38,549 nt of DNA from an uncultured Methanosarcinales archaeon (GTDB lineage: Archaea > Nanobdellota > Nanobdellia > Woesearchaeales > GW2011-AR9). Shown piece after piece: positions 7,305 to 33,176 of this stretch (position 1 is its first letter; each line of letters begins with the position of its first letter). Location: NCBI GenBank assembly GCA_964361725.1, contig CAYIBV010000001.1:1-38549 (forward strand). Reading direction: 5' to 3'. The notes beneath the pieces were generated by a model that did no database searches, was not told the origin of the DNA, and was given only the letters and a program-made list of their open reading frames with translations. The position numbers and the translations under genes are program-made.

Positions 7305-7469
7305 TCACTTCCCCATCTTCGGCACTACTTTATATGCTACCAGTGCTATCACAGCCAGAATAACCAAAAACACTTTCCAATCTATAATCGTAAACGAAAA
7401 TAAGATTAAATTCAAAACTACCACCCCAATCAAAACAACCCCTGCTAATTTTAACGATTTACTGTTCAT
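7305..7469 (-). CDS. small two-TM membrane protein (54 aa, below the ORF-track cutoff)
   Basis: Translates MNSKSLKLAGVVLIGVVVLNLILFSFTIIDWKVFLVILAVIALVAYKVVPKMGK. The ATG overlaps the last 11 nt of hisS. The stop abuts the convergent 6630-7304 gene. Confidence 0.4.
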   Translation of the reverse strand: MNSKSLKLAGVVLIGVVVLNLILFSFTIIDWKVFLVILAVIALVAYKVVPKMGK

Positions 7470-8784
7470 GAGCTAATTTCTTCACCACATTCTTCACCGT
7501 CAGCAACTGCTCCGTTCCCGTGCTCATATCCCGCAATAATACTTTTTTCTTCTTTAATTCATTTTCTCCCAACATAATCACATAGGGAATCTTCAACGCA
7601 CTGGCATATTCCAAATTCTTGGAAACCCCTTTTCCCAAAGCAAAATCTGTGCAGATTCCCGCTTCCCGCAACTCCTGCGCCACTATAAGACTTTCTTTGA
7701 CTGTATTAATAGGAAGAACTAAGACCATACTAGGTGTCTTTCGCTCCCCTGTCTTTTTCTCTTTCAACGCTTCTGCAATGGGCACTAACCCAAAAGAAAC
7801 CCCCACTGCCGGAACGACTCTTCCCCCGCCCATGAAACTGCCGATCATGTTATCCCATCTTCCCCCTGAACCAAGAGATGAAGTAATCGTTCCTTTTTTC
7901 ATAAATACTTCAAATACCGCTCCGGTATAATACGCCAATCCCCGCGCTAACGACACATCAAACACCGCGGAAGTGACGCCGAATAATTTCAAATATCCAA
8001 ACAACTCTTCTAATTCCGCAATGCCCTGCTTTCCTTCTTCATTTGTCAACTTTTGTTTCAGTTCTGTGAGTGTAATGCCCTCTTTGATCAACGAAAGAAT
8101 ATCTTTAACTTGTTTCGTACTGCACCCTCGTTGCTCTAATTCTTTACTCACACCTTCTTTGCCAATTTTGTCTAATTTATCAATGGCCACAATTGCTTTT
8201 TCTTTATCCTGCACGCCCGCTTGGGCTAAAATGCCATTAAGTACTTTTCGATTATTTACTTTGATAATAACAGGCAATCCTAACTGCACAAATACGCGCT
8301 CAAACAGATTTAATAATTCCGCTTCCGCAAGTAGTGAACTGCTGCCCACCACATCCGCATCACACTGCCAGAATTGCCGCACACGACCTGCTTTAATCGG
8401 CCCATCGCGGAACACGATGCCCATTTCATAGCGCTTGAACGGCATCTTTAAATTAGGATTCATCGCCACGTATCTGGCCAAAGGAACGGTTAAATCAAAT
8501 CGTAATCCTAACTCCCTATCTCCCTGATCTTTTAATTTGAACATTTCTTTCAAGGCATCAGACGCTTCACCCGCCGCAAATTTCGCTGCGAGCGTTTCGT
8601 ACCGTTCTAAAATAGGAGTTTCCAAAGGCGCAAAGCCCGAGAGTTCAAACACCTTGCGGATAGTTTCCACTACTTCATTGGTAATGATCTTCTCTTCCGG
8701 CGGGATATCCCGCACCCCTTTGGCAGTTTGCAGTGGCATACTGTTCTTTGGAAGATTCTCTGCGTTTAAAAATGTTGTTCTCAT
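7459..8784 (-). CDS. hisS: histidyl-tRNA synthetase
   Basis: Class II aaRS / HisRS blocks: KGVRD, LRFDLTVPLARY, FRDGPIKAGRVRQFWQCDADVVG, GGRWDNMIG. The ATG at 8784 forms an ATGA overlap with the upstream gene's stop. The track's extension to 8826 is unlikely. Confidence 0.9.
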   Translation of the reverse strand: MRTTFLNAENLPKNSMPLQTAKGVRDIPPEEKIITNEVVETIRKVFELSGFAPLETPILERYETLAAKFAAGEASDALKEMFKLKDQGDRELGLRFDLTVPLARYVAMNPNLKMPFKRYEMGIVFRDGPIKAGRVRQFWQCDADVVGSSSLLAEAELLNLFERVFVQLGLPVIIKVNNRKVLNGILAQAGVQDKEKAIVAIDKLDKIGKEGVSKELEQRGCSTKQVKDILSLIKEGITLTELKQKLTNEEGKQGIAELEELFGYLKLFGVTSAVFDVSLARGLAYYTGAVFEVFMKKGTITSSLGSGGRWDNMIGSFMGGGRVVPAVGVSFGLVPIAEALKEKKTGERKTPSMVLVLPINTVKESLIVAQELREAGICTDFALGKGVSKNLEYASALKIPYVIMLGENELKKKKVLLRDMSTGTEQLLTVKNVVKKLAHEQ

Positions 8785-10199
8785 TGTTCCCCCTCCACGC
8801 AGTAGTACAGGCGTATTTCGTAACACCTTTTTCCTGTACGCTCTCCCGCAACCTCTACATCAACAAAACTTGGAATGAACTGCTCAAATAAAGTGCTTCG
8901 CCGGAAATCGTCGTTGAGCTCCGGACTCCATAAAGGGGTGACCAGCGGTTTGAAATAGCCTGCTCCCCTCTCATCGTATTCCGTAAAGAATACTTTTTTC
9001 TTCACGACAAGGCCATAATCATCTCCCAAACGAACCTGCTCTTCCCACTGTTGTAAGTCACCCCGTTCAGGATATGTTACGACACTGTTAGGGAGATTCA
9101 CTCCAAAATCTTCTAGTCTCCACTGCATTGCTTGGATAATTTTATTGCGTAGAGGTTGGTTCCGTGTAAGGTAATCATATGATGCTAAAGGATACTTAAT
9201 TCCATTCAATGCCACTTCTCTCCACCCCTCTTCTTCCGTTACATTTATCCCCCGCCCACGCAGTCCATCCACTAAAACTTTATTCTCTAACGCAAAAAAA
9301 CCAAGATTGCGGGAATTTCCCTGATACACCACAATCTCATTTCCCGCTGCTTGTGCTAACGCTTCTACACCAATCTCTGCGTTCCTTCCTAACGCTTCAC
9401 TGGCAAACACAATGTCTGCAACATACCCCACAGCAGGTGAACCTATATCTATGACATAAATTGTATTTCCACTCACCAGAAAATCTATGGAACCTGTAAA
9501 GAACTGTCGTTCCCGTCCCCCCAAAGAGGCAGAGAACAATGCCTCTTCCAAAGATTGTTGGAATTTCTGAGCAATTTCGGAAAGGCCATCACAAAGCACT
9601 TTCGTCGCTCTTTCCATTCGCTCAAAAAGGGCACGTGGCAAAAGAAAAGGTTTATCAGTCACACTGTAAAAGAAAATTGGTGCTTTTCCCTTCGCTCGCT
9701 GTTCTACTGTAGGAGTGAGCGCTTCTGCCTCTGTAAGAAGAAAATTAATCTCATCAATTCTCGTAGAATCTAATGATTGGATTTGCCGTTGCACATCCAT
9801 TAATCTCTGCTGTTTCTGCTCATCGATGCGTCGGAGAACAAACGGCTCTGCAAACGCCGCTTTGGGAAGTAACGTAACTCTTCCATCGTATCCTAAAAGA
9901 CCATCTTCTACAATGTCTACAAGAGATGTAAATCCCGTAAATGCCGTCTGGTCGTTGCTCAGGCACTTGAGAAGCCACCGTTCATCTTCAATACGTGGCG
10001 GTTTTCCGCAGCGAAGCAGGGGGGTAAGATAATTCTCCAAGAAACGCTCTTTATCACTTCGGGAGAAATTCTGTCCTCTATTTTCTCGCCATTGCCGTGT
10101 ACGTTCTAAGATTGGTTCATACGTTCCTCCACTCACTCGAGCAATAGTAGAAAGAATTTTTATTCTATTATCATCTACTCCCGTGAAGACAATCAGCAC
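8781..10199 (-). CDS. hypothetical protein (472 aa), translationally coupled to hisS
   Basis: Long ORF whose only early start is GTG at 10199. The segment GSIDFLVSGNTIYVIDIGSPAVGY is reminiscent of the closing block of ATP-grasp enzymes. This is not enough for a call. Confidence 0.5.
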   Translation of the reverse strand: MLIVFTGVDDNRIKILSTIARVSGGTYEPILERTRQWRENRGQNFSRSDKERFLENYLTPLLRCGKPPRIEDERWLLKCLSNDQTAFTGFTSLVDIVEDGLLGYDGRVTLLPKAAFAEPFVLRRIDEQKQQRLMDVQRQIQSLDSTRIDEINFLLTEAEALTPTVEQRAKGKAPIFFYSVTDKPFLLPRALFERMERATKVLCDGLSEIAQKFQQSLEEALFSASLGGRERQFFTGSIDFLVSGNTIYVIDIGSPAVGYVADIVFASEALGRNAEIGVEALAQAAGNEIVVYQGNSRNLGFFALENKVLVDGLRGRGINVTEEEGWREVALNGIKYPLASYDYLTRNQPLRNKIIQAMQWRLEDFGVNLPNSVVTYPERGDLQQWEEQVRLGDDYGLVVKKKVFFTEYDERGAGYFKPLVTPLWSPELNDDFRRSTLFEQFIPSFVDVEVAGERTGKRCYEIRLYYCVEGEQ

Positions 10200-10476: not shown

Positions 10477-10518
10477 TTTTCATATTCTCCCCGCTTTAAG
10501 CCCGGCCGGCTTGTTAAG

Positions 10519-10687
10519 GCCTGCGGGAGAGAATTGAACTCTCGTCCTCAGATATCTGCAACAGCAGAGCCCAGAAGCTCCGCTTTTCATCGCCACAGTC
10601 TGAGATGCTGCCACTACGCACGAAGGGACAACGATCCCTTCGGCGTCCCAGAAAAATCGTTGTTTTTCTGTGGACACCACCGCAAGC
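10519..10687 (-). tRNA. tRNA-His(GUG) copy 2 with two inserts (D-arm insert about 10616-10673; canonical 37/38 intron 10554-10592)
   Basis: The minus strand reads G-1, CUUGCGG, UG, GUGU [58 nt] AGUGGCA GCAU C UCAGA CUGUGG [39 nt] A UCUGA GGAC GAGAG UUCAAUU CUCUC CCGCAGG C. The T-arm is consensus. The acceptor is 7 bp with one G-U. G-1 lies opposite C73. The second intron shows a strict bulge-helix-bulge (BHB). The boundaries of the first insert are provisional. Confidence 0.6.
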
Positions 10688-10846
10688 ATGAATAAGACTA
10701 ACAATGCCTATGGTGATGACAATGCACAGAAGTAGAACTACCAATCTTTATTTTTTCAACAAGAATAGACGATAATCTAACAAAACATTTACCGACAATG
10801 AAGACAATCACTTGTTTTGCTTATCATAAACTAATAGAAAAACGTT

Positions 10847-10864
10847 GGAATATATAAACTTTTC
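10847..10864 (-). promoter_or_regulatory. consensus BRE/TATA element without an adjacent start codon
   Basis: The minus strand reads GAAAAGTTTATATATTCC, matching the promoter consensus of this window. It lies about 160 nt upstream of tRNA-His copy 2 and about 40 nt downstream of copy 1. Confidence 0.4.
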
Positions 10865-10899
10865 TAAGATACTCACTAAAAAGAGATAACAAAAAAGAG

Positions 10900-11045
10900 G
10901 GCGGCTGGGGAGACTTTCATGCACCAAGCTGTTTCGTCTTGGTGGGCTTTACGCCCGCCGTTTGGTGCAGCTTTCCAAAAGTGCGAGTTGAACTCCCTCC
11001 AAAGGCTCCACAGGCCTCTATACTAACCGTTATACTACAGCCGCC
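10900..11045 (-). tRNA. tRNA-His(GUG) copy 1 with 73-nt T-loop intron (10914-10986, position 59/60)
   Basis: The minus strand reads G-1 GCGGCUG UA GUAU AACGGUUA GUAU A GAGGC CUGUGGA GCCUU UGGA GGGAG UUCAAC [73 nt] U CUCCC CAGCCGC C. All stems pair. The anticodon is at 11011-11009. G-1 pairs with C73. A BHB forms at the junctions. An oligo-T run at 10891-10896 follows. Confidence 0.8.
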
Positions 11046-11070: not shown

Positions 11071-11080
11071 TTTAAAAAAC
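11071..11080 (-). promoter_or_regulatory. TATA box for tRNA-His copy 1
   Basis: The minus strand reads AAGTTTTTTAAAG, centred about 30 nt upstream of G-1. It lies between the stop of the 11088-12557 CDS and the tRNA. Confidence 0.45.
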
Positions 11081-17686: not shown

Positions 17687-19081
17687 ATGCATTCAACTTC
17701 CATGTATACACCAGAAACTCTTACGGAAAGAACCAGTGGTCTTACTTCTATACATAGAGATCTGTATGAGACTGTAATGGCCTTGCAAGAACTTGCCGCA
17801 AGAATAGGAGATTCTCCCCTGAATCAGACTGCAGCGTATAATATTCAAACCAAGTTCACGGAATTTGCCGATACATTATCTGGCATAGACCTTCTCGTTG
17901 AAGCGCAACAGAACAAACTTGGCTCTTTTCTAGAGTGGGCAGAACTGCTTGACGGAGTGAACCAACCTCTTGCAAAACGAGTGTATTCCATCATAGGAAA
18001 ACGCCTTGACATTCTGTACAAACAACGAGAGGGACTGAGCATACGAATCGCCCAACTCACCACGCTTGGAGAGGATACCATCGCTCTTGCCGCACCCTCA
18101 GAAGGGCAAACATCTACACCATATGCAGAATTGCTGGAAGATATGACTGCAGAAGAACAAGCTCTTTCCACTGTCAGGGAATGGTTTAAAGAAGGAACAG
18201 ACTATTTGAATACAGTTTTCAACCATGTAACAGCTGTTCGTGAACCGCCTGAAGAAAGATCTGACAGAGATTATGGTCTATTAATGACAGAGGCACACGA
18301 TGCCCTTAGCGACCTTCTTCACCGGCGAGAGGAAGCAAAAACATCTCAGGCAGCGGCAGAGGCGGCAGTGCGGGAAGCAGAACGGCGCGCGGGAGAAGCA
18401 GACGCACGGGCAGCAGAAGCAAATTTGTTGTACGAAACAGCAAATGACGAACGAACTACGGCAGTAGCACGTGCCGGCACACTGGAAGCAGACCTCCATG
18501 CCGCAGAAGGAAGAGTGGAAGAAGCAACTAGATTATATTCTGAAAGAGGGCAACAATATAAGGAGATAGAAGAACAACAATCGGCAGTCCTTGCCCGGGC
18601 AGAAACTGCCGAGAGATTTGATAGGGATTTCGCCATAGAAGTAGAAAGATTACGAAGCGAGTCTGGTCTCAACACAGGCACCATTACTGCTCTTCAAGAA
18701 GAACGTGATGAATTACGAGGGCGTGTTGACGCCGTAGAACGGGAACTAACAGATTATAAAGCATCAGAACAGGGTATGACCGCAGCAGAAGAAGAGAATG
18801 CCCGCCTCCATCAGGAAGCAGAAACACGAGAAGCAGAATTACGACAAGCCTATCGCACGGTAGAAGCAGAACAAGAAAGATATAGACTACTACAATCCTC
18901 CGTTGCCGTCACAGAAGCACGGGCAGCAGAACTTGCCACTGGACTAGACACATATCAATATTTATATGAAGATCGAGACCTGGCACTCCAACAACTTCGG
19001 GAACGTCATGGTCGAGTGCTGTCCGGTCTTGAAGCCGCGGGAATTCCTCTGGAAGAAATCATTGCACGAGCCAAGAAATAA
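17687..19081 (+). CDS. long coiled-coil protein, Glu/Ala/Arg-rich (group A, copy 1)
   Basis: 464 aa. The C-terminal roughly 270 aa are heptad-like charged helix (AEAAVREAERRAGEADARAAEA...). No enzymatic motif was seen. Confidence 0.6.
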   Translation: MHSTSMYTPETLTERTSGLTSIHRDLYETVMALQELAARIGDSPLNQTAAYNIQTKFTEFADTLSGIDLLVEAQQNKLGSFLEWAELLDGVNQPLAKRVYSIIGKRLDILYKQREGLSIRIAQLTTLGEDTIALAAPSEGQTSTPYAELLEDMTAEEQALSTVREWFKEGTDYLNTVFNHVTAVREPPEERSDRDYGLLMTEAHDALSDLLHRREEAKTSQAAAEAAVREAERRAGEADARAAEANLLYETANDERTTAVARAGTLEADLHAAEGRVEEATRLYSERGQQYKEIEEQQSAVLARAETAERFDRDFAIEVERLRSESGLNTGTITALQEERDELRGRVDAVERELTDYKASEQGMTAAEEENARLHQEAETREAELRQAYRTVEAEQERYRLLQSSVAVTEARAAELATGLDTYQYLYEDRDLALQQLRERHGRVLSGLEAAGIPLEEIIARAKK

Positions 19082-30181: not shown

Positions 30182-30577
30182 ATGAATATCAATAGAACAG
30201 CGATAACACGCATTGCACAAAAGCACCATCTTCGTCTTCTTGTTCTTTTTGGCTCCCATGCCACGGGGAAAACTCACCCCAAAAGCGATATTGACTTTGC
30301 GTTTTATGCTTTACATCCGGTGAATGAACAACAATTGTACGATGATCTTGCCGCCCTCTTCAAACGTGAAGACATAGATGTCCTAAATCTCGTTACTACC
30401 CACAATCACTACCTCCGCTTTAAGATACTTCATACAGGAAAAGTGGTGTATGAAGAAAAATACGGTGTATACGACCGCATGAAAGGGGAAAGTTATTTTG
30501 ATTACATCGATTTCAGGAAATATTATGATCTTCATGATAAGCTTCTTAGCCAGAGAATCGCTGGGATGAGCATCTAA
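30182..30577 (+). CDS. mntA: MNT-type nucleotidyltransferase (antitoxin of a HepT/MNT pair)
   Basis: LLVLFGSHATGKTHPKSDIDFAF matches the GS-x(n)-DxD minimal nucleotidyltransferase motif. Confidence 0.7.
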   Translation: MNINRTAITRIAQKHHLRLLVLFGSHATGKTHPKSDIDFAFYALHPVNEQQLYDDLAALFKREDIDVLNLVTTHNHYLRFKILHTGKVVYEEKYGVYDRMKGESYFDYIDFRKYYDLHDKLLSQRIAGMSI

Positions 30578-30578
30578 C

Positions 30579-30992
30579 ATGGATAAAACACTCTTACAGC
30601 AAAAACTTGAACTTCTTGCAGATCTCTTGGAAAAAATAAAACAGATTTTGCTGGAACACGACAAAAATCAAAAATTGCAAGAATTCCTCCTCTACGCCGC
30701 TGAAAAAAAAGCAGAAGAGATTGTAGAATTAGCCGTTACTATTAACCAAGAAATTCTGGGAAGTAAAGGCAAAATTGCGTTGAGTTATTATGAAACATTT
30801 AGCCATCTTTCACGATTCTCTCTGTTTACAGAAGAAGAGCTAAGACAGCTTGCCAGCACTGCTGGTTTCCGTAACCGTCTTGCCCATGAGTATCTCGAAA
30901 TAGATCGCCACATTGCTCTTCGTACCATGAAAAACATGATGCCTTTATATTCTCTGTATCTTCAAAGAATTAAAAAATTCAGCTCAAAGTGA
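30579..30992 (+). CDS. hepT: HepT/DUF86 HEPN-domain toxin
   Basis: FRNRLAHEYLEID contains the R-x4-H HEPN motif. The gene starts 1 nt after the MNT stop. Confidence 0.7.
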   Translation: MDKTLLQQKLELLADLLEKIKQILLEHDKNQKLQEFLLYAAEKKAEEIVELAVTINQEILGSKGKIALSYYETFSHLSRFSLFTEEELRQLASTAGFRNRLAHEYLEIDRHIALRTMKNMMPLYSLYLQRIKKFSSK

Positions 30993-32574: not shown

Positions 32575-32766
32575 ATGACCACTGAAGTTAAAACAGCTCA
32601 TGATGATTTGGAGACATACCAAAAGCGTATCGAATTACTGATAGGTGCCCGTTTCTCTGAGTCCAAAAACATACAATCTGCAGTGGAAACACAAGACAAC
32701 ATCCGGAAAAAAATCGGCGCTTGGGAAGGCACAAAAGAGATCCGACGATGGCGTCAGCAGAATTAA
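32575..32766 (+). CDS. VapB-like antitoxin candidate
   Basis: 63-aa ORF overlapping the PIN gene start. The C-terminal KKIGAWEGTKEIRRWR resembles archaeal VapB tails. AACATTTAAATAG lies about 25 nt upstream. Confidence 0.45.
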   Translation: MTTEVKTAHDDLETYQKRIELLIGARFSESKNIQSAVETQDNIRKKIGAWEGTKEIRRWRQQN

Positions 32767-33176
32767 AATCTGTGATAGACTCTTCTGTAATCATAAAATG
32801 GTTCTGTGAGGAAGAAGATACCCCAAAAGCATTAGCCCTGCGAGAAAATTATTGTCAAGGTAACGCGGAAATAGTCTTCCCTGATTTATCTCTCTATGAA
32901 GTTGCTAACGCTCTCAGGCACAATAAATCCATTACAGAAAACGATGTTAAAATAGCTGTGGAAAGCCTCATTAAGATGAATGTAGAAATTGTCGTCCCTA
33001 CTATGGATGTGATGAAATCAGCGATTAACTTTGCTTTCCGCTACAATATTACGGTATACGATGCTTATTTCCTCGCTCTTGCACAAACTTTACGATTCAC
33101 GTTGATTACTGCTGATGAATCATTCTATACCAAAGTTAAAAGCATTCCTTTTGTCACATTACTAAAAGACATCTAA
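32748..33176 (+). CDS. vapC: PIN-domain ribonuclease (VapC-type toxin)
   Basis: ATG at 32748. The acidic quartet is in PIN order: VIDSS, LYEV, TVYDAYF, ITADE. Confidence 0.7.
   Translation: MASAELKSVIDSSVIIKWFCEEEDTPKALALRENYCQGNAEIVFPDLSLYEVANALRHNKSITENDVKIAVESLIKMNVEIVVPTMDVMKSAINFAFRYNITVYDAYFLALAQTLRFTLITADESFYTKVKSIPFVTLLKDI

What the first reader, a model, noticed from the sequence alone, without database searches (positions are those of the whole stretch)
10900..11045. Unannotated tRNA-His(GUG) with a 73-nt intron inside the T-loop (59/60) and a textbook BHB
No ORF explains this GC-rich patch. The minus strand from 11045 folds as G-1, acceptor GCGGCUG/CAGCCGC, D-arm GUAU-AACGGUUA-GUAU, anticodon arm GAGGC-CUGUGGA-GCCUU (GUG at 11011-11009), variable UGGA and T-stem GGGAG/CUCCC. 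The T-loop is split by 73 nt. The junctions form a helix-bulge-helix-bulge-helix structure. Its parts are the T-stem, a 4-bp helix UUCA (10992-10989)/UGAA (10919-10916), the 3-nt bulges ACU (10988-10986) and AGU (10915-10913), and an inner helix GCAC/GUGC after one C-A mismatch. Cutting after the second nucleotide of each bulge, the canonical splicing-endonuclease geometry, removes 10914-10986. This restores a 7-nt loop UUCAACU. The genome-encoded G-1 opposite C73 is the HisRS identity pair. CCA is not encoded. A TATA-like box lies about 30 nt upstream and a T6 run lies directly downstream. Non-canonical intron positions are known mainly from some archaeal lineages, and standard gene callers miss them.
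Basis: partly seen in the sequence, partly recalled or inferred. Interest (0 to 1): 0.75.

Follow-up and report, generated by a model that had tools for sequence, protein, structure and literature searches.

The report
tRNA-His gene with T-loop intron
This is a real histidine tRNA gene in a tiny groundwater archaeon, hidden from standard gene finders by a 73-base intron in its T-loop; this kind of archaeal intron is already known, so the case is useful rather than surprising.

Summary
On the minus strand, 11045-10900 encodes tRNA-His(GUG) with an encoded G-1, C73 and no CCA. A 73-nt insert (10986-10914) lies between tRNA positions 59 and 60. ARAGORN and Rfam miss the unspliced gene. The in-silico spliced 73-mer is called tRNA-His. 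Three close relatives carry the same gene at the same chromosomal place without the insert, and their T arm, GGGAGTTCAACTCTCCC, is exactly the predicted splice product. The exon-intron junctions form a bulge-helix-bulge in only one register. About 5 in 10,000 shuffled introns do as well. A more distant relative (L116) has an unrelated 39-nt intron at the same 59/60 site, with a compensatory change in the central helix. The host is a DPANN archaeon (Woesearchaeota/Nanoarchaeota MAG, probably Hainich groundwater). Introns at 59/60 are already described, including in the DPANN archaeon ARMAN-2, so this is a new member of a known kind. The BHB has one C·A mismatch, and a broad-specificity endonuclease is not clearly required. 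It carries a canonical 39-nt intron and an unexplained 56-nt D-arm insertion.

The parts
11071..11078 (-). TATA-like box TTTTTAAA, -33 to -26 from G-1, 10 nt after the stop codon of the upstream gene
   Evidence: Read. The block TTTTTAAAGCA is invariant in the orthologous loci L107, L108 and L109 (alignment A1). Promoter function is inferred.
10987..11045 (-). 5' exon: G-1 (11045) through C59; holds the acceptor 5' strand, D arm, anticodon arm (GUG at 11011-11009), variable region, T-stem 5' strand and T-loop positions 54-59
   Evidence: Rfam tRNA model matches 11037-10983 at 24.7 bits. The lineage tRNA-His model R1 gives 49 bits, E = 5e-12.
10914..10986 (-). 73-nt BHB intron between tRNA positions 59 and 60; folds as an irregular hairpin with a GC-rich tip GGCGGGC-GUAAA-GCCCACC
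   Evidence: Exactly this length is absent from L107, L108 and L109. Folds. No C/D boxes. No other copy in the window, the fetched loci or viral contigs.
10900..10913 (-). 3' exon: U60, T-stem 3' strand CUCCC, acceptor 3' strand CAGCCGC and discriminator C73
10989..10992 (-). BHB central helix, 5' strand UUCA (positions 54-57); pairs with UGAA at 10919-10916
   Evidence: In L116 the same helix is UUCG/CGAA, a compensatory change.
10986..10988 (-). 5' bulge ACU; predicted cut between 10987 and 10986
   Evidence: The cut position follows from the known geometry of archaeal EndA and is inferred.
10913..10919 (-). BHB central helix, 3' strand UGAA (10919-10916), and 3' bulge AGU (10915-10913); predicted cut between 10914 and 10913
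10980..10985 (-). Inner helix h', 5' strand: C (mismatched with A10920) then GCACU, paired with GGUGC at 10925-10921
10891..10896 (-). T6 run 4 nt after C73, a likely archaeal terminator
   Evidence: Conserved in L107, L108 and L109. Function is inferred.
10519..10687 (-). Second, divergent tRNA-His(GUG) gene (His2): G-1 at 10687, acceptor CUUGCGG/CCGCAGG, C73 at 10519. It has a canonical 39-nt intron (10592-10554) at 37/38 in a strict hBHBh' (h 7 bp, H CUGU/GCAG, h' 4 bp) and a 56-nt D-arm insertion (10677-10622) with no BHB
   Evidence: Intronless orthologues L107 5615-5688 and L109 337-408 score 43.9 and 49.6 bits on Rfam tRNA. R1 hit of 27.8 bits.

Best explanation
Window 11045-10900 (minus strand) is a functional tRNA-His(GUG) gene of a DPANN archaeon, interrupted by a 73-nt archaeal bulge-helix-bulge intron between positions 59 and 60 of the T loop.

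Proposed pathway (inferred from established archaeal tRNA biology):
1. Transcription starts about 25 nt downstream of the TTTTTAAA box and stops at the T6 run.
2. In the precursor the T stem acts as the outer helix.
3. T-loop bases 54-57 (UUCA) pair with the intron's UGAA to make the 4-bp central helix.
4. The two splice sites sit in 3-nt bulges on opposite strands.
5. The tRNA-splicing endonuclease EndA cuts after the second base of each bulge, and RtcB ligase joins the exons.
6. This restores the loop UUCAACU and yields a 73-nt tRNA running from G-1 to C73.
7. RNase P leaves the encoded G-1, which is the HisRS identity element, and the CCA-adding enzyme adds CCA.

Shown here: the gene anatomy, the exact insertion boundaries relative to intronless orthologues, and a BHB in the one correct register. 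Inferred: transcription, cleavage, ligation and aminoacylation.
For: - The spliced 73-mer is called tRNA-His(gtg) by ARAGORN at default settings.
- The unspliced locus is the only Rfam tRNA signal in the window. It is also the top hit of a tRNA-His model built only from relatives (49 bits).
- The syntenic loci L107, L108 and L109 share the gene order thermosome, CDP-OH transferase, tRNA, Zn-ribbon, 472-aa protein, hisS. The neighbouring 472-aa protein is 77-79% identical. These loci carry the same gene without the 73 nt, and their T arm GGGAGTTCAACTCTCCC equals the predicted product. Acceptor and D arm are identical, and the anticodon stem changes by compensatory substitutions. These orthologues score 55.6 and 53.5 bits on Rfam tRNA.
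- On 11 sequences, including the spliced product, 97.1% of cloverleaf cells are paired and 15 of 22 pairs show compensatory change. None of 500 shuffles reaches this.
- The BHB forms only in the 59/60 register. 105 of 200,000 shuffled introns do as well. The cloverleaf plus BHB fold is within 0.9 kcal/mol of the minimum free energy.
- L116 (GCA_053532055.1) has an unrelated 39-nt intron at the same 59/60 site in a strict hBHBh'. Its central helix is UUCG/CGAA, against UUCA/UGAA here.
- An independent assembly confirms the sequence.
- The TATA box and T-run are conserved.
- Introns at 59/60 and disrupted tRNA genes are already documented in DPANN (PMC5829648).
Against: - There are no RNA data, so splicing itself is not shown.
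- No EndA or RtcB gene lies in the window, so the enzyme type is unknown.
- The first pair of the inner helix is a C·A mismatch, so the motif is not a perfect hBHBh'.
- The central helix is AU-rich and is left open in the unconstrained minimum-free-energy fold.
- The closest relatives lack the intron, and pattern scans of genome and metagenome collections found no other copy. BHB covariation therefore rests on a single second sequence, L116.
- A second tRNA-His gene lies next door, so this copy is not necessarily indispensable.
Confidence: 0.88

Rival explanations
1. Disrupted relic: a tRNA-His gene inactivated by a 73-nt insertion that is never removed. Histidine decoding would be supplied by another gene, either His2 or a copy elsewhere in the genome.
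For: The nearest relatives lack the insert, so it may be recent. A second tRNA-His(GUG) gene lies 210 nt downstream. No RNA evidence of splicing exists.
Against: - The exons are intact. Acceptor, D arm and T arm are identical to L107, and the promoter box and terminator are conserved.
- The insert makes a BHB in exactly the one register that restores a 7-nt T loop, with p about 5e-4.
- L116 keeps an intron at the same site in a strict BHB.
- The neighbouring His2 copy is itself interrupted twice, once without a BHB. It is therefore the weaker candidate for the working gene.
Confidence: 0.07
2. The gene is real and spliced, but at a different junction (60/61 or 61/62), or the insert is removed by a route other than EndA cleavage of a BHB.
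For: The bases UC occur at both boundaries. Cuts shifted by +1 or +2 therefore give the same mature sequence. The alignment with orthologues cannot place the gap uniquely.
Against: Only the 59/60 register gives four central pairs and a 5-bp outer helix. The shifted registers give one central pair or fewer and no outer helix. L116 uses the same register. No other tRNA intron-removal route is known in archaea (established knowledge).
Confidence: 0.03
3. Assembly or binning artefact: a chimeric join or a foreign fragment inside a tRNA gene.
For: The contig is from a metagenome-assembled genome. Coverage of the independent contig is low (its name gives cov_3).
Against: L113, from a separate per-sample assembly, matches 2,891 nt across both tRNA genes with one mismatch and no gap. 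The insert is flanked by perfectly syntenic sequence on both sides.
Confidence: 0.01

Closest known systems
Intron at position 59/60 of pre-tRNA-Cys(GCA) in ARMAN-2 (Candidatus Micrarchaeum, DPANN), used as an EndA substrate in PMC5829648 (its reference 12)
   Same: Same superphylum, same non-canonical position in the T loop, and the T stem serves as the outer helix.
   Different: That intron is described as a relaxed hBH motif cut by the epsilon2 EndA. Here both bulges and an inner helix are present (near-strict hBHBh' with one mismatch). The tRNA is His, and the host lineage is Woesearchaeota/Nanoarchaeota, where PMC5829648 discusses alpha4 EndAs with an L3 loop in several DPANN lineages (it also predicted tRNA genes for a Woesearchaeota MAG).
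Non-canonical BHB introns of Thermoproteales tRNAs (surveys by Marck and Grosjean 2003 and by Sugahara, Fujishima and co-workers; cited from my own knowledge)
   Same: Introns outside 37/38, including in D and T loops. Several introns can occur per gene, presence and absence turn over quickly between relatives, and standard tRNA finders miss them.
   Different: Different phylum and lifestyle: mesophilic groundwater DPANN rather than hyperthermophilic Crenarchaeota. No sign here of the intron sequence families that indicate transposition there; the three inserts are unrelated to each other and unique.
Canonical archaeal tRNA intron at 37/38
   Same: Identical BHB geometry, shifted by 22 positions from the anticodon arm to the T arm. 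The same enzymes are presumed. His2 in this window carries such a canonical intron.
   Different: The position differs, and the exon bases in the central helix are the conserved T-loop bases 54-57 rather than anticodon-loop bases.
Split tRNA-His of Nanoarchaeum equitans (Randau et al. 2005, as summarised in bioRxiv 10.64898/2026.05.13.725050)
   Same: A tRNA-His gene disrupted in a DPANN archaeon and invisible to single-locus tRNA finders. A BHB-type junction is processed by EndA.
   Different: In N. equitans the two halves are separate genes joined in trans. Here the two exons lie in cis, 73 nt apart.

Membership tests
tRNA (Rfam RF00005), isoacceptor His | Cloverleaf with 7/4/5/5-bp stems and 7-nt anticodon and T loops after intron removal | tested here: met
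   ARAGORN at default settings calls the spliced 73-mer tRNA-His(gtg). On alignment A4, 97.1% of cells are paired and 15 of 22 pairs are compensatory.
tRNA (Rfam RF00005), isoacceptor His | Score above the curated covariance-model threshold | tested here: inconclusive
   The unspliced locus scores 24.7 bits, below the gathering score of 29. The tools cannot score a free sequence, so the spliced 73-mer was not scored. Its intronless orthologues, identical in the acceptor, D and T arms (they differ at position 26, in the anticodon stem and in the variable region), score 55.6 and 53.5 bits. The lineage model R1 gives 49 bits on the 5' exon.
tRNA (Rfam RF00005), isoacceptor His | Conserved tertiary bases: U8, A14, G18 G19, A21, U33, U54 U55 C56, A58 | tested here: met
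   Read directly from the sequence. The T-loop set is complete only after splicing.
tRNA (Rfam RF00005), isoacceptor His | His identity set: anticodon GUG and G-1 opposite C73 | tested here: met
   GUG at 11011-11009, G-1 at 11045 and C73 at 10900. G-1 pairs with N73 in 10 of 11 related genes.
tRNA (Rfam RF00005), isoacceptor His | Expressed, processed and charged with histidine | not testable with these tools
   No RNA or biochemical data are available.
Archaeal BHB (EndA-dependent) intron | Two 3-nt bulges on opposite strands separated by a 4-bp helix at the exon-intron junctions | tested here: met
   UUCA/UGAA with bulges ACU and AGU. This is the only register that pairs. 105 of 200,000 shuffles do as well.
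Archaeal BHB (EndA-dependent) intron | Flanking outer helix h and inner helix h' (strict hBHBh') | tested here: inconclusive
   The outer helix h is the 5-bp T stem. The inner helix h' has five pairs, but its first position is a C·A mismatch. This is close to strict but not perfect.
Archaeal BHB (EndA-dependent) intron | Cutting after the second base of each bulge yields a functional mature RNA | tested here: met
   The product's T arm GGGAGTTCAACTCTCCC is identical to that of the intronless orthologues L107 and L109, and of L071 and L091.
Archaeal BHB (EndA-dependent) intron | The genome encodes EndA and RtcB; the EndA type matches the substrate | not testable with these tools
   Neither gene lies in the 38.5-kb window (Pfam scans). 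The rest of the genome was not available.
Archaeal BHB (EndA-dependent) intron | Structure conserved in homologous introns | tested here: met
   There is one further case. L116 has a 39-nt intron at 59/60 with h GTGGG/CCCAC, H TTCG/CGAA and an 8-bp h'. The two intron sequences are not detectably similar; 36 of 500 shuffles align as well.

The most novel reading that the evidence does not exclude
The 73-nt intron may be one snapshot of unusually fast intron turnover in a conserved pair of tRNA-His(GUG) genes that sits upstream of hisS in one Woesearchaeales clade.

Among relatives whose neighbouring 472-aa protein is 55-79% identical, the two genes carry no introns or inserts at 37/38, 15/16 or 59/60, in different combinations.

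The second gene in this window also holds a 56-nt, two-hairpin D-arm insertion with no BHB. That insertion would need nested splicing, a very relaxed endonuclease or an undescribed processing step.

The second gene has a conserved long leader and a conserved hairpin plus GGAG immediately downstream. It could double as a tRNA-like cis element of the hisS operon.
Probability: 0.12. Interest if true: 0.65.

Novelty: new member of a known kind. Interest (0 to 1): 0.35.

Why it matters
- **Annotation.** This contig yields no tRNA with ARAGORN or with Rfam at curated thresholds, although it holds two tRNA-His genes. Genome surveys of DPANN archaea report apparently missing tRNAs (PMC5829648; bioRxiv 10.64898/2026.05.13.725050). 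Cases like this show that some of these are hidden by non-canonical introns and are not truly lost.
- **Evolution.** The locus is a clean natural experiment. Orthologous genes in close relatives differ only by the presence, position and sequence of BHB introns. That is useful for asking how archaeal tRNA introns are gained and lost.
- **Mechanism.** No new principle is implied.

Tried and rejected
- **ARAGORN.** Default and intron modes on the window found nothing. At an 85% threshold only a truncated call and obvious false positives appeared.
- **Rfam.** At gathering score it found nothing in the window.
- **Protein-based locus search.** A search of GTDB genomes with the upstream 489-aa protein found no relative.
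- **Exact look-up.** The exact sequence of that protein is not on record.
- **Genome pattern scan.** The scan for tRNA-His T arms returned only intronless tRNA-His genes from DPANN archaea and CPR bacteria, plus chance hits.
- **Metagenome pattern scan.** The pattern requiring a 50-80-nt gap returned three false matches.
- **Intron core.** The GC-rich core has no match in viral contigs and no second copy in the window.
- **The three inserts.** They share no similarity with each other or with any fetched locus, so a mobile-intron family was rejected.
- **Intron-encoded C/D-box sRNA.** Rejected, because there is no C or D box.
- **Homology with the L116 intron.** Not supported.
- **Window-wide BHB scan.** Loose BHB motifs are common by chance: 795 per strand among about 7.35 million position-length combinations. 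A BHB alone is therefore not evidence; only its exact register is.
- **His2 D-arm insertion.** Attempts to find a BHB failed, including relaxed scoring and two-step nested splicing.
- **Lineage covariance model.** It could not bridge the 73-nt insertion and mis-aligned intron bases as a 3' end.
- **L001.** The 84%-identical relative has a scaffold gap exactly where the tRNA should be, so it was uninformative.

Full report
**1. The observation**

- G-1 is followed by acceptor GCGGCUG.
- Then come U8 A9, D arm GUAU-AACGGUUA-GUAU, anticodon arm GAGGC-CUGUGGA-GCCUU (GUG at 11011-11009), variable region UGGA, and T-stem GGGAG followed by UUCAAC.
- 73 nt of other sequence follow.
- The gene ends with U, CUCCC, CAGCCGC and C73.
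- CCA is not encoded.
- TTTTTAAA lies at 11078-11071, 10 nt after the stop codon of the upstream gene.
- A T6 run lies at 10896-10891.

ARAGORN finds no tRNA in the 38.5-kb window. Rfam finds nothing at curated thresholds. With relaxed thresholds the only RNA-family signal in the window is a partial tRNA match at 11037-10983: 24.7 bits against a threshold of 29, covering model positions 8-63. No ORF explains the patch.

**2. Splicing in silico**

Joining 11045-10987 to 10913-10900 gives a 73-mer. ARAGORN at default settings calls it tRNA-His(gtg) with a regular cloverleaf.

The minimum-free-energy fold of the 146-nt precursor already contains the acceptor stem (including G-1:C73), the anticodon stem, the T stem closed across the insert, and a long intron hairpin. 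Forcing the full cloverleaf plus the bulge-helix-bulge costs only 0.9 kcal/mol: -51.8 against -52.7.

**3. The BHB and chance**

| Element | Sequence | Coordinates |
|---|---|---|
| Outer helix h | T stem, 5 bp | 10997-10993 / 10912-10908 |
| Central helix H | UUCA / UGAA | 10992-10989 / 10919-10916 |
| Bulges | ACU and AGU | 10988-10986 and 10915-10913 |
| Mismatch | C·A | 10985 / 10920 |
| Inner helix h' | GCACU / GGUGC | 10984-10980 / 10925-10921 |

Loose BHB motifs are frequent by chance: 795 per strand among about 7.35 million position-length combinations. A BHB alone therefore proves little. The relevant test is whether one forms at the single junction that restores the tRNA.
- 105 of 200,000 shuffles of the intron do as well.
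- Of the five neighbouring registers only 59/60 pairs (H 4/4, h 5 bp). The other four registers give H of 2 or less.
- The bases UC are repeated at both boundaries. Cuts at 60/61 or 61/62 would therefore give the same product, and only the geometry selects 59/60.

**4. The organism**

- The window encodes a thermosome, HisRS, Cbf5, and ribosomal proteins S19e, L31e and S3Ae.
- Named relatives of the upstream CDP-alcohol transferase / DAG-kinase fusion protein are from Woesearchaeota or Nanoarchaeota MAGs.
- The neighbouring 472-aa protein is on record at 100% identity, on a contig of the window's exact length (38,549 nt), as 'MAG... [Nanoarchaeota archaeon]'.
- Near-identical contigs come from Hainich H51 groundwater.
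- One of them, L113, is a separate per-sample assembly. It matches 11309-8419 at 99.97% identity without gaps, so the insert is not an assembly artefact.

**5. Orthologues settle the exon boundaries**

Relatives whose 472-aa protein is 77-79% identical are L107 (GCA_053533955.1), L108 (Logan SRR16110230) and L109 (ENA assembly ERZ28563625, ANAN16 sample). L107 and L108 show the same gene order: Lactamase_B, thermosome, CDP-OH transferase, tRNA, Zn-ribbon, 472-aa protein, hisS. L109 is a 2.6-kb contig that covers only the two tRNA genes, a 109-aa ORF, the 472-aa homologue and the start of the next gene.

At the syntenic spot each carries an uninterrupted tRNA-His.
- Alignment A1 shows a single 73-nt insertion in the window.
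- Acceptor, D arm and T arm are identical to L107.
- The anticodon stem changes by compensatory substitutions (GAGGC/GCCUU against GGGGA/UCCCU).
- The TATA block and the T-run are conserved.
- Their T arm GGGAGTTCAACTCTCCC is exactly the predicted splice product. More distant Woesearchaeota genes (L071, L091) have the same T arm.
- The intronless orthologues score 55.6 and 53.5 bits on Rfam tRNA.

Across 11 related sequences, including both spliced window genes, the cloverleaf has 97.1% of cells paired. 15 of 22 pairs show changes on both sides, and no shuffle or slid control comes close.

A covariance model built only from relatives hits the window at two places, both tRNA-His loci: 49 and 27.8 bits, with the next hit at 8.5 bits.

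**6. A second intron at the same site**

L116 (GCA_053532055.1; 472-aa homologue 56% identical) has a tRNA-His with the same acceptor and D stems as the window gene and two non-canonical introns.

| Position | Length | Motif |
|---|---|---|
| 15/16 | 24 nt | strict hBHBh' |
| 59/60 | 39 nt | h GUGGG/CCCAC, H UUCG/CGAA, bulges AUU/GGU, h' 8 bp |

Compared with the window, the central helix keeps pairing through A57-U changing to G57-C. The two 59/60 introns are not detectably similar; 36 of 500 shuffles align as well. Common descent and independent gain both remain possible.

**7.

A second tRNA-His(GUG) gene (His2) lies 210 nt downstream, at 10687-10519.
- It has G-1, acceptor CUUGCGG/CCGCAGG, anticodon loop CUGUGGA, T arm GAGAG-UUCAAUU-CUCUC and C73.
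- It carries a canonical 39-nt intron (10592-10554) in a strict hBHBh' (h 7 bp, H CUGU/GCAG, h' 4 bp).
- It also carries a 56-nt D-arm insertion (10677-10622).
- With both removed, ARAGORN calls a clean tRNA-His.
- L107 and L109 have this gene intronless (43.9 and 49.6 bits), with compensatory changes in three stems. The pair of divergent tRNA-His genes is therefore conserved and both evolve as tRNAs.

The D-arm insertion folds as two perfect hairpins. It has no BHB at any junction that restores the D arm, and it remains unexplained.

Intron content at this locus varies among relatives:

| Genome | His1 | His2 |
|---|---|---|
| Window | 59/60 (73 nt) | 37/38 (39 nt) plus 56-nt D-arm insertion |
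| L107 (L108: His1 only checked) | none | none |
| L109 | none | none |
| L114, L115 | 37/38 (21 nt) | none |
| L117 | insert of about 34 nt at 37/38 (no strict BHB found) | insert of about 29 nt at 37/38 (no strict BHB found) |
| L110 | not seen at this locus | about 16 nt at 37/38 (read by eye, next to a scaffold gap; BHB scan did not confirm it) |
| L116 (single gene) | 15/16 (24 nt) and 59/60 (39 nt) | no second gene seen in the stretch read |

**8. Mechanism**

By established archaeal biology, EndA recognises the BHB wherever it lies and cuts in both bulges. RtcB then ligates, RNase P leaves the encoded G-1, and the CCA-adding enzyme completes the 3' end.

Literature read here says that alpha4 and alpha'2 EndAs cut canonical BHBs, while relaxed motifs need (alpha-beta)2 or epsilon2 enzymes. 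It also says that several DPANN lineages have alpha4 enzymes with an extra L3 loop, associated with more disrupted tRNA genes. [quoted passage not shown]

The motif here is near-strict, so a broad-specificity enzyme is not clearly required. No EndA gene lies in the window, so this could not be tested.

**9. Verdict**

Both the observation and the interpretation are correct. The feature is a new member of a known kind.
- Its value is practical: it is an example of a tRNA hidden from standard callers in a DPANN MAG.
- Its value is also evolutionary: it is a clean case of intron presence and absence between close orthologues.
- The most unusual items are side findings: the conserved tRNA-His gene pair upstream of hisS and the BHB-less D-arm insertion in His2.

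Noticed in passing
window 10519-10687 (minus strand): A second, divergent tRNA-His(GUG) gene with G-1 and C73. It is interrupted by a canonical 39-nt BHB intron (10592-10554) and a 56-nt D-arm insertion (10677-10622). It is intronless in L107 and L109. ARAGORN calls the fully spliced form tRNA-His.
   Followed up: yes
window 10622-10677 (minus strand): The 56-nt insertion in the D arm of the second tRNA-His folds as two perfect hairpins (10677-10643 and 10641-10622). It has no bulge-helix-bulge at any junction that restores the D arm. It could be a pseudogenising insertion, a nested or relaxed intron, or something new.
   Followed up: partly
window 10688-10866 (minus strand); also L107 5440-5612, L109 158-334, L114 3368-3575, L116 3478-3630, L117 2540-2738, L110 2675-2950: A strong TATA box (TTTATATA) and an AT-rich leader of about 170 nt precede the second tRNA-His gene in all relatives examined. 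The leader has conserved blocks, for example GAGTTGATTGTMTTCAYTG and TCATCATC. In L116 the same leader precedes the single intron-containing gene.
   Followed up: partly
window 10486-10512 (minus strand): A hairpin AAGCCGGCCGGGCUU followed by AAAGCGGGGAGA lies directly 3' of the second tRNA-His and just before the Zn-ribbon gene start. It is conserved in relatives, with what look by eye like compensatory changes. No oligo-T follows this tRNA, so it may be co-transcribed with the downstream genes, including hisS.
   Followed up: no
L003, L012, L017, L066, L091 (tRNA-His loci of other DPANN genomes); window hisS at 7459-8826: In many DPANN genomes what looks, from its N-terminal translation read by eye, like the hisS gene starts directly downstream of tRNA-His. 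In the window's clade two or three genes (Zn-ribbon, a 470-aa protein of unknown function, sometimes a HAD hydrolase) sit between them. This looks like a conserved linkage of a tRNA with its synthetase.
   Followed up: partly
L116 3631-3770: The tRNA-His of GCA_053532055.1 has two non-canonical strict-BHB introns, at 15/16 (24 nt) and 59/60 (39 nt), and apparently U73 instead of C73. ARAGORN finds nothing there even in intron mode.
   Followed up: yes
window 10963-10973 (minus strand, inside the 73-nt intron): The intron contains AAGCUGC-A-CCA. This resembles the gene's own acceptor 3' strand plus a discriminator and CCA. The lineage covariance model mis-aligned it as the tRNA 3' end. It is probably chance.
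   Followed up: no
L001 2470-2610: In the relative whose upstream protein is 84% identical, a scaffold gap replaces the expected tRNA-His. Beyond the gap lies an element of about 130 nt with a 13-bp terminal stem and an oligo-T tail, which looks like an unidentified structured RNA.
   Followed up: no
window 30182-30992 and 32721-33176 (plus strand): A nucleotidyltransferase / HepT-like (MNT-HEPN) toxin-antitoxin pair and a PIN-domain protein.
   Followed up: no
window 17687-19081 (plus strand): A 464-aa Ala/Glu/Arg-rich protein, coiled-coil-like by eye, with no Pfam match. It accounts for the most GC-rich stretch of the window (18288-18529, GC up to 0.73).
   Followed up: partly
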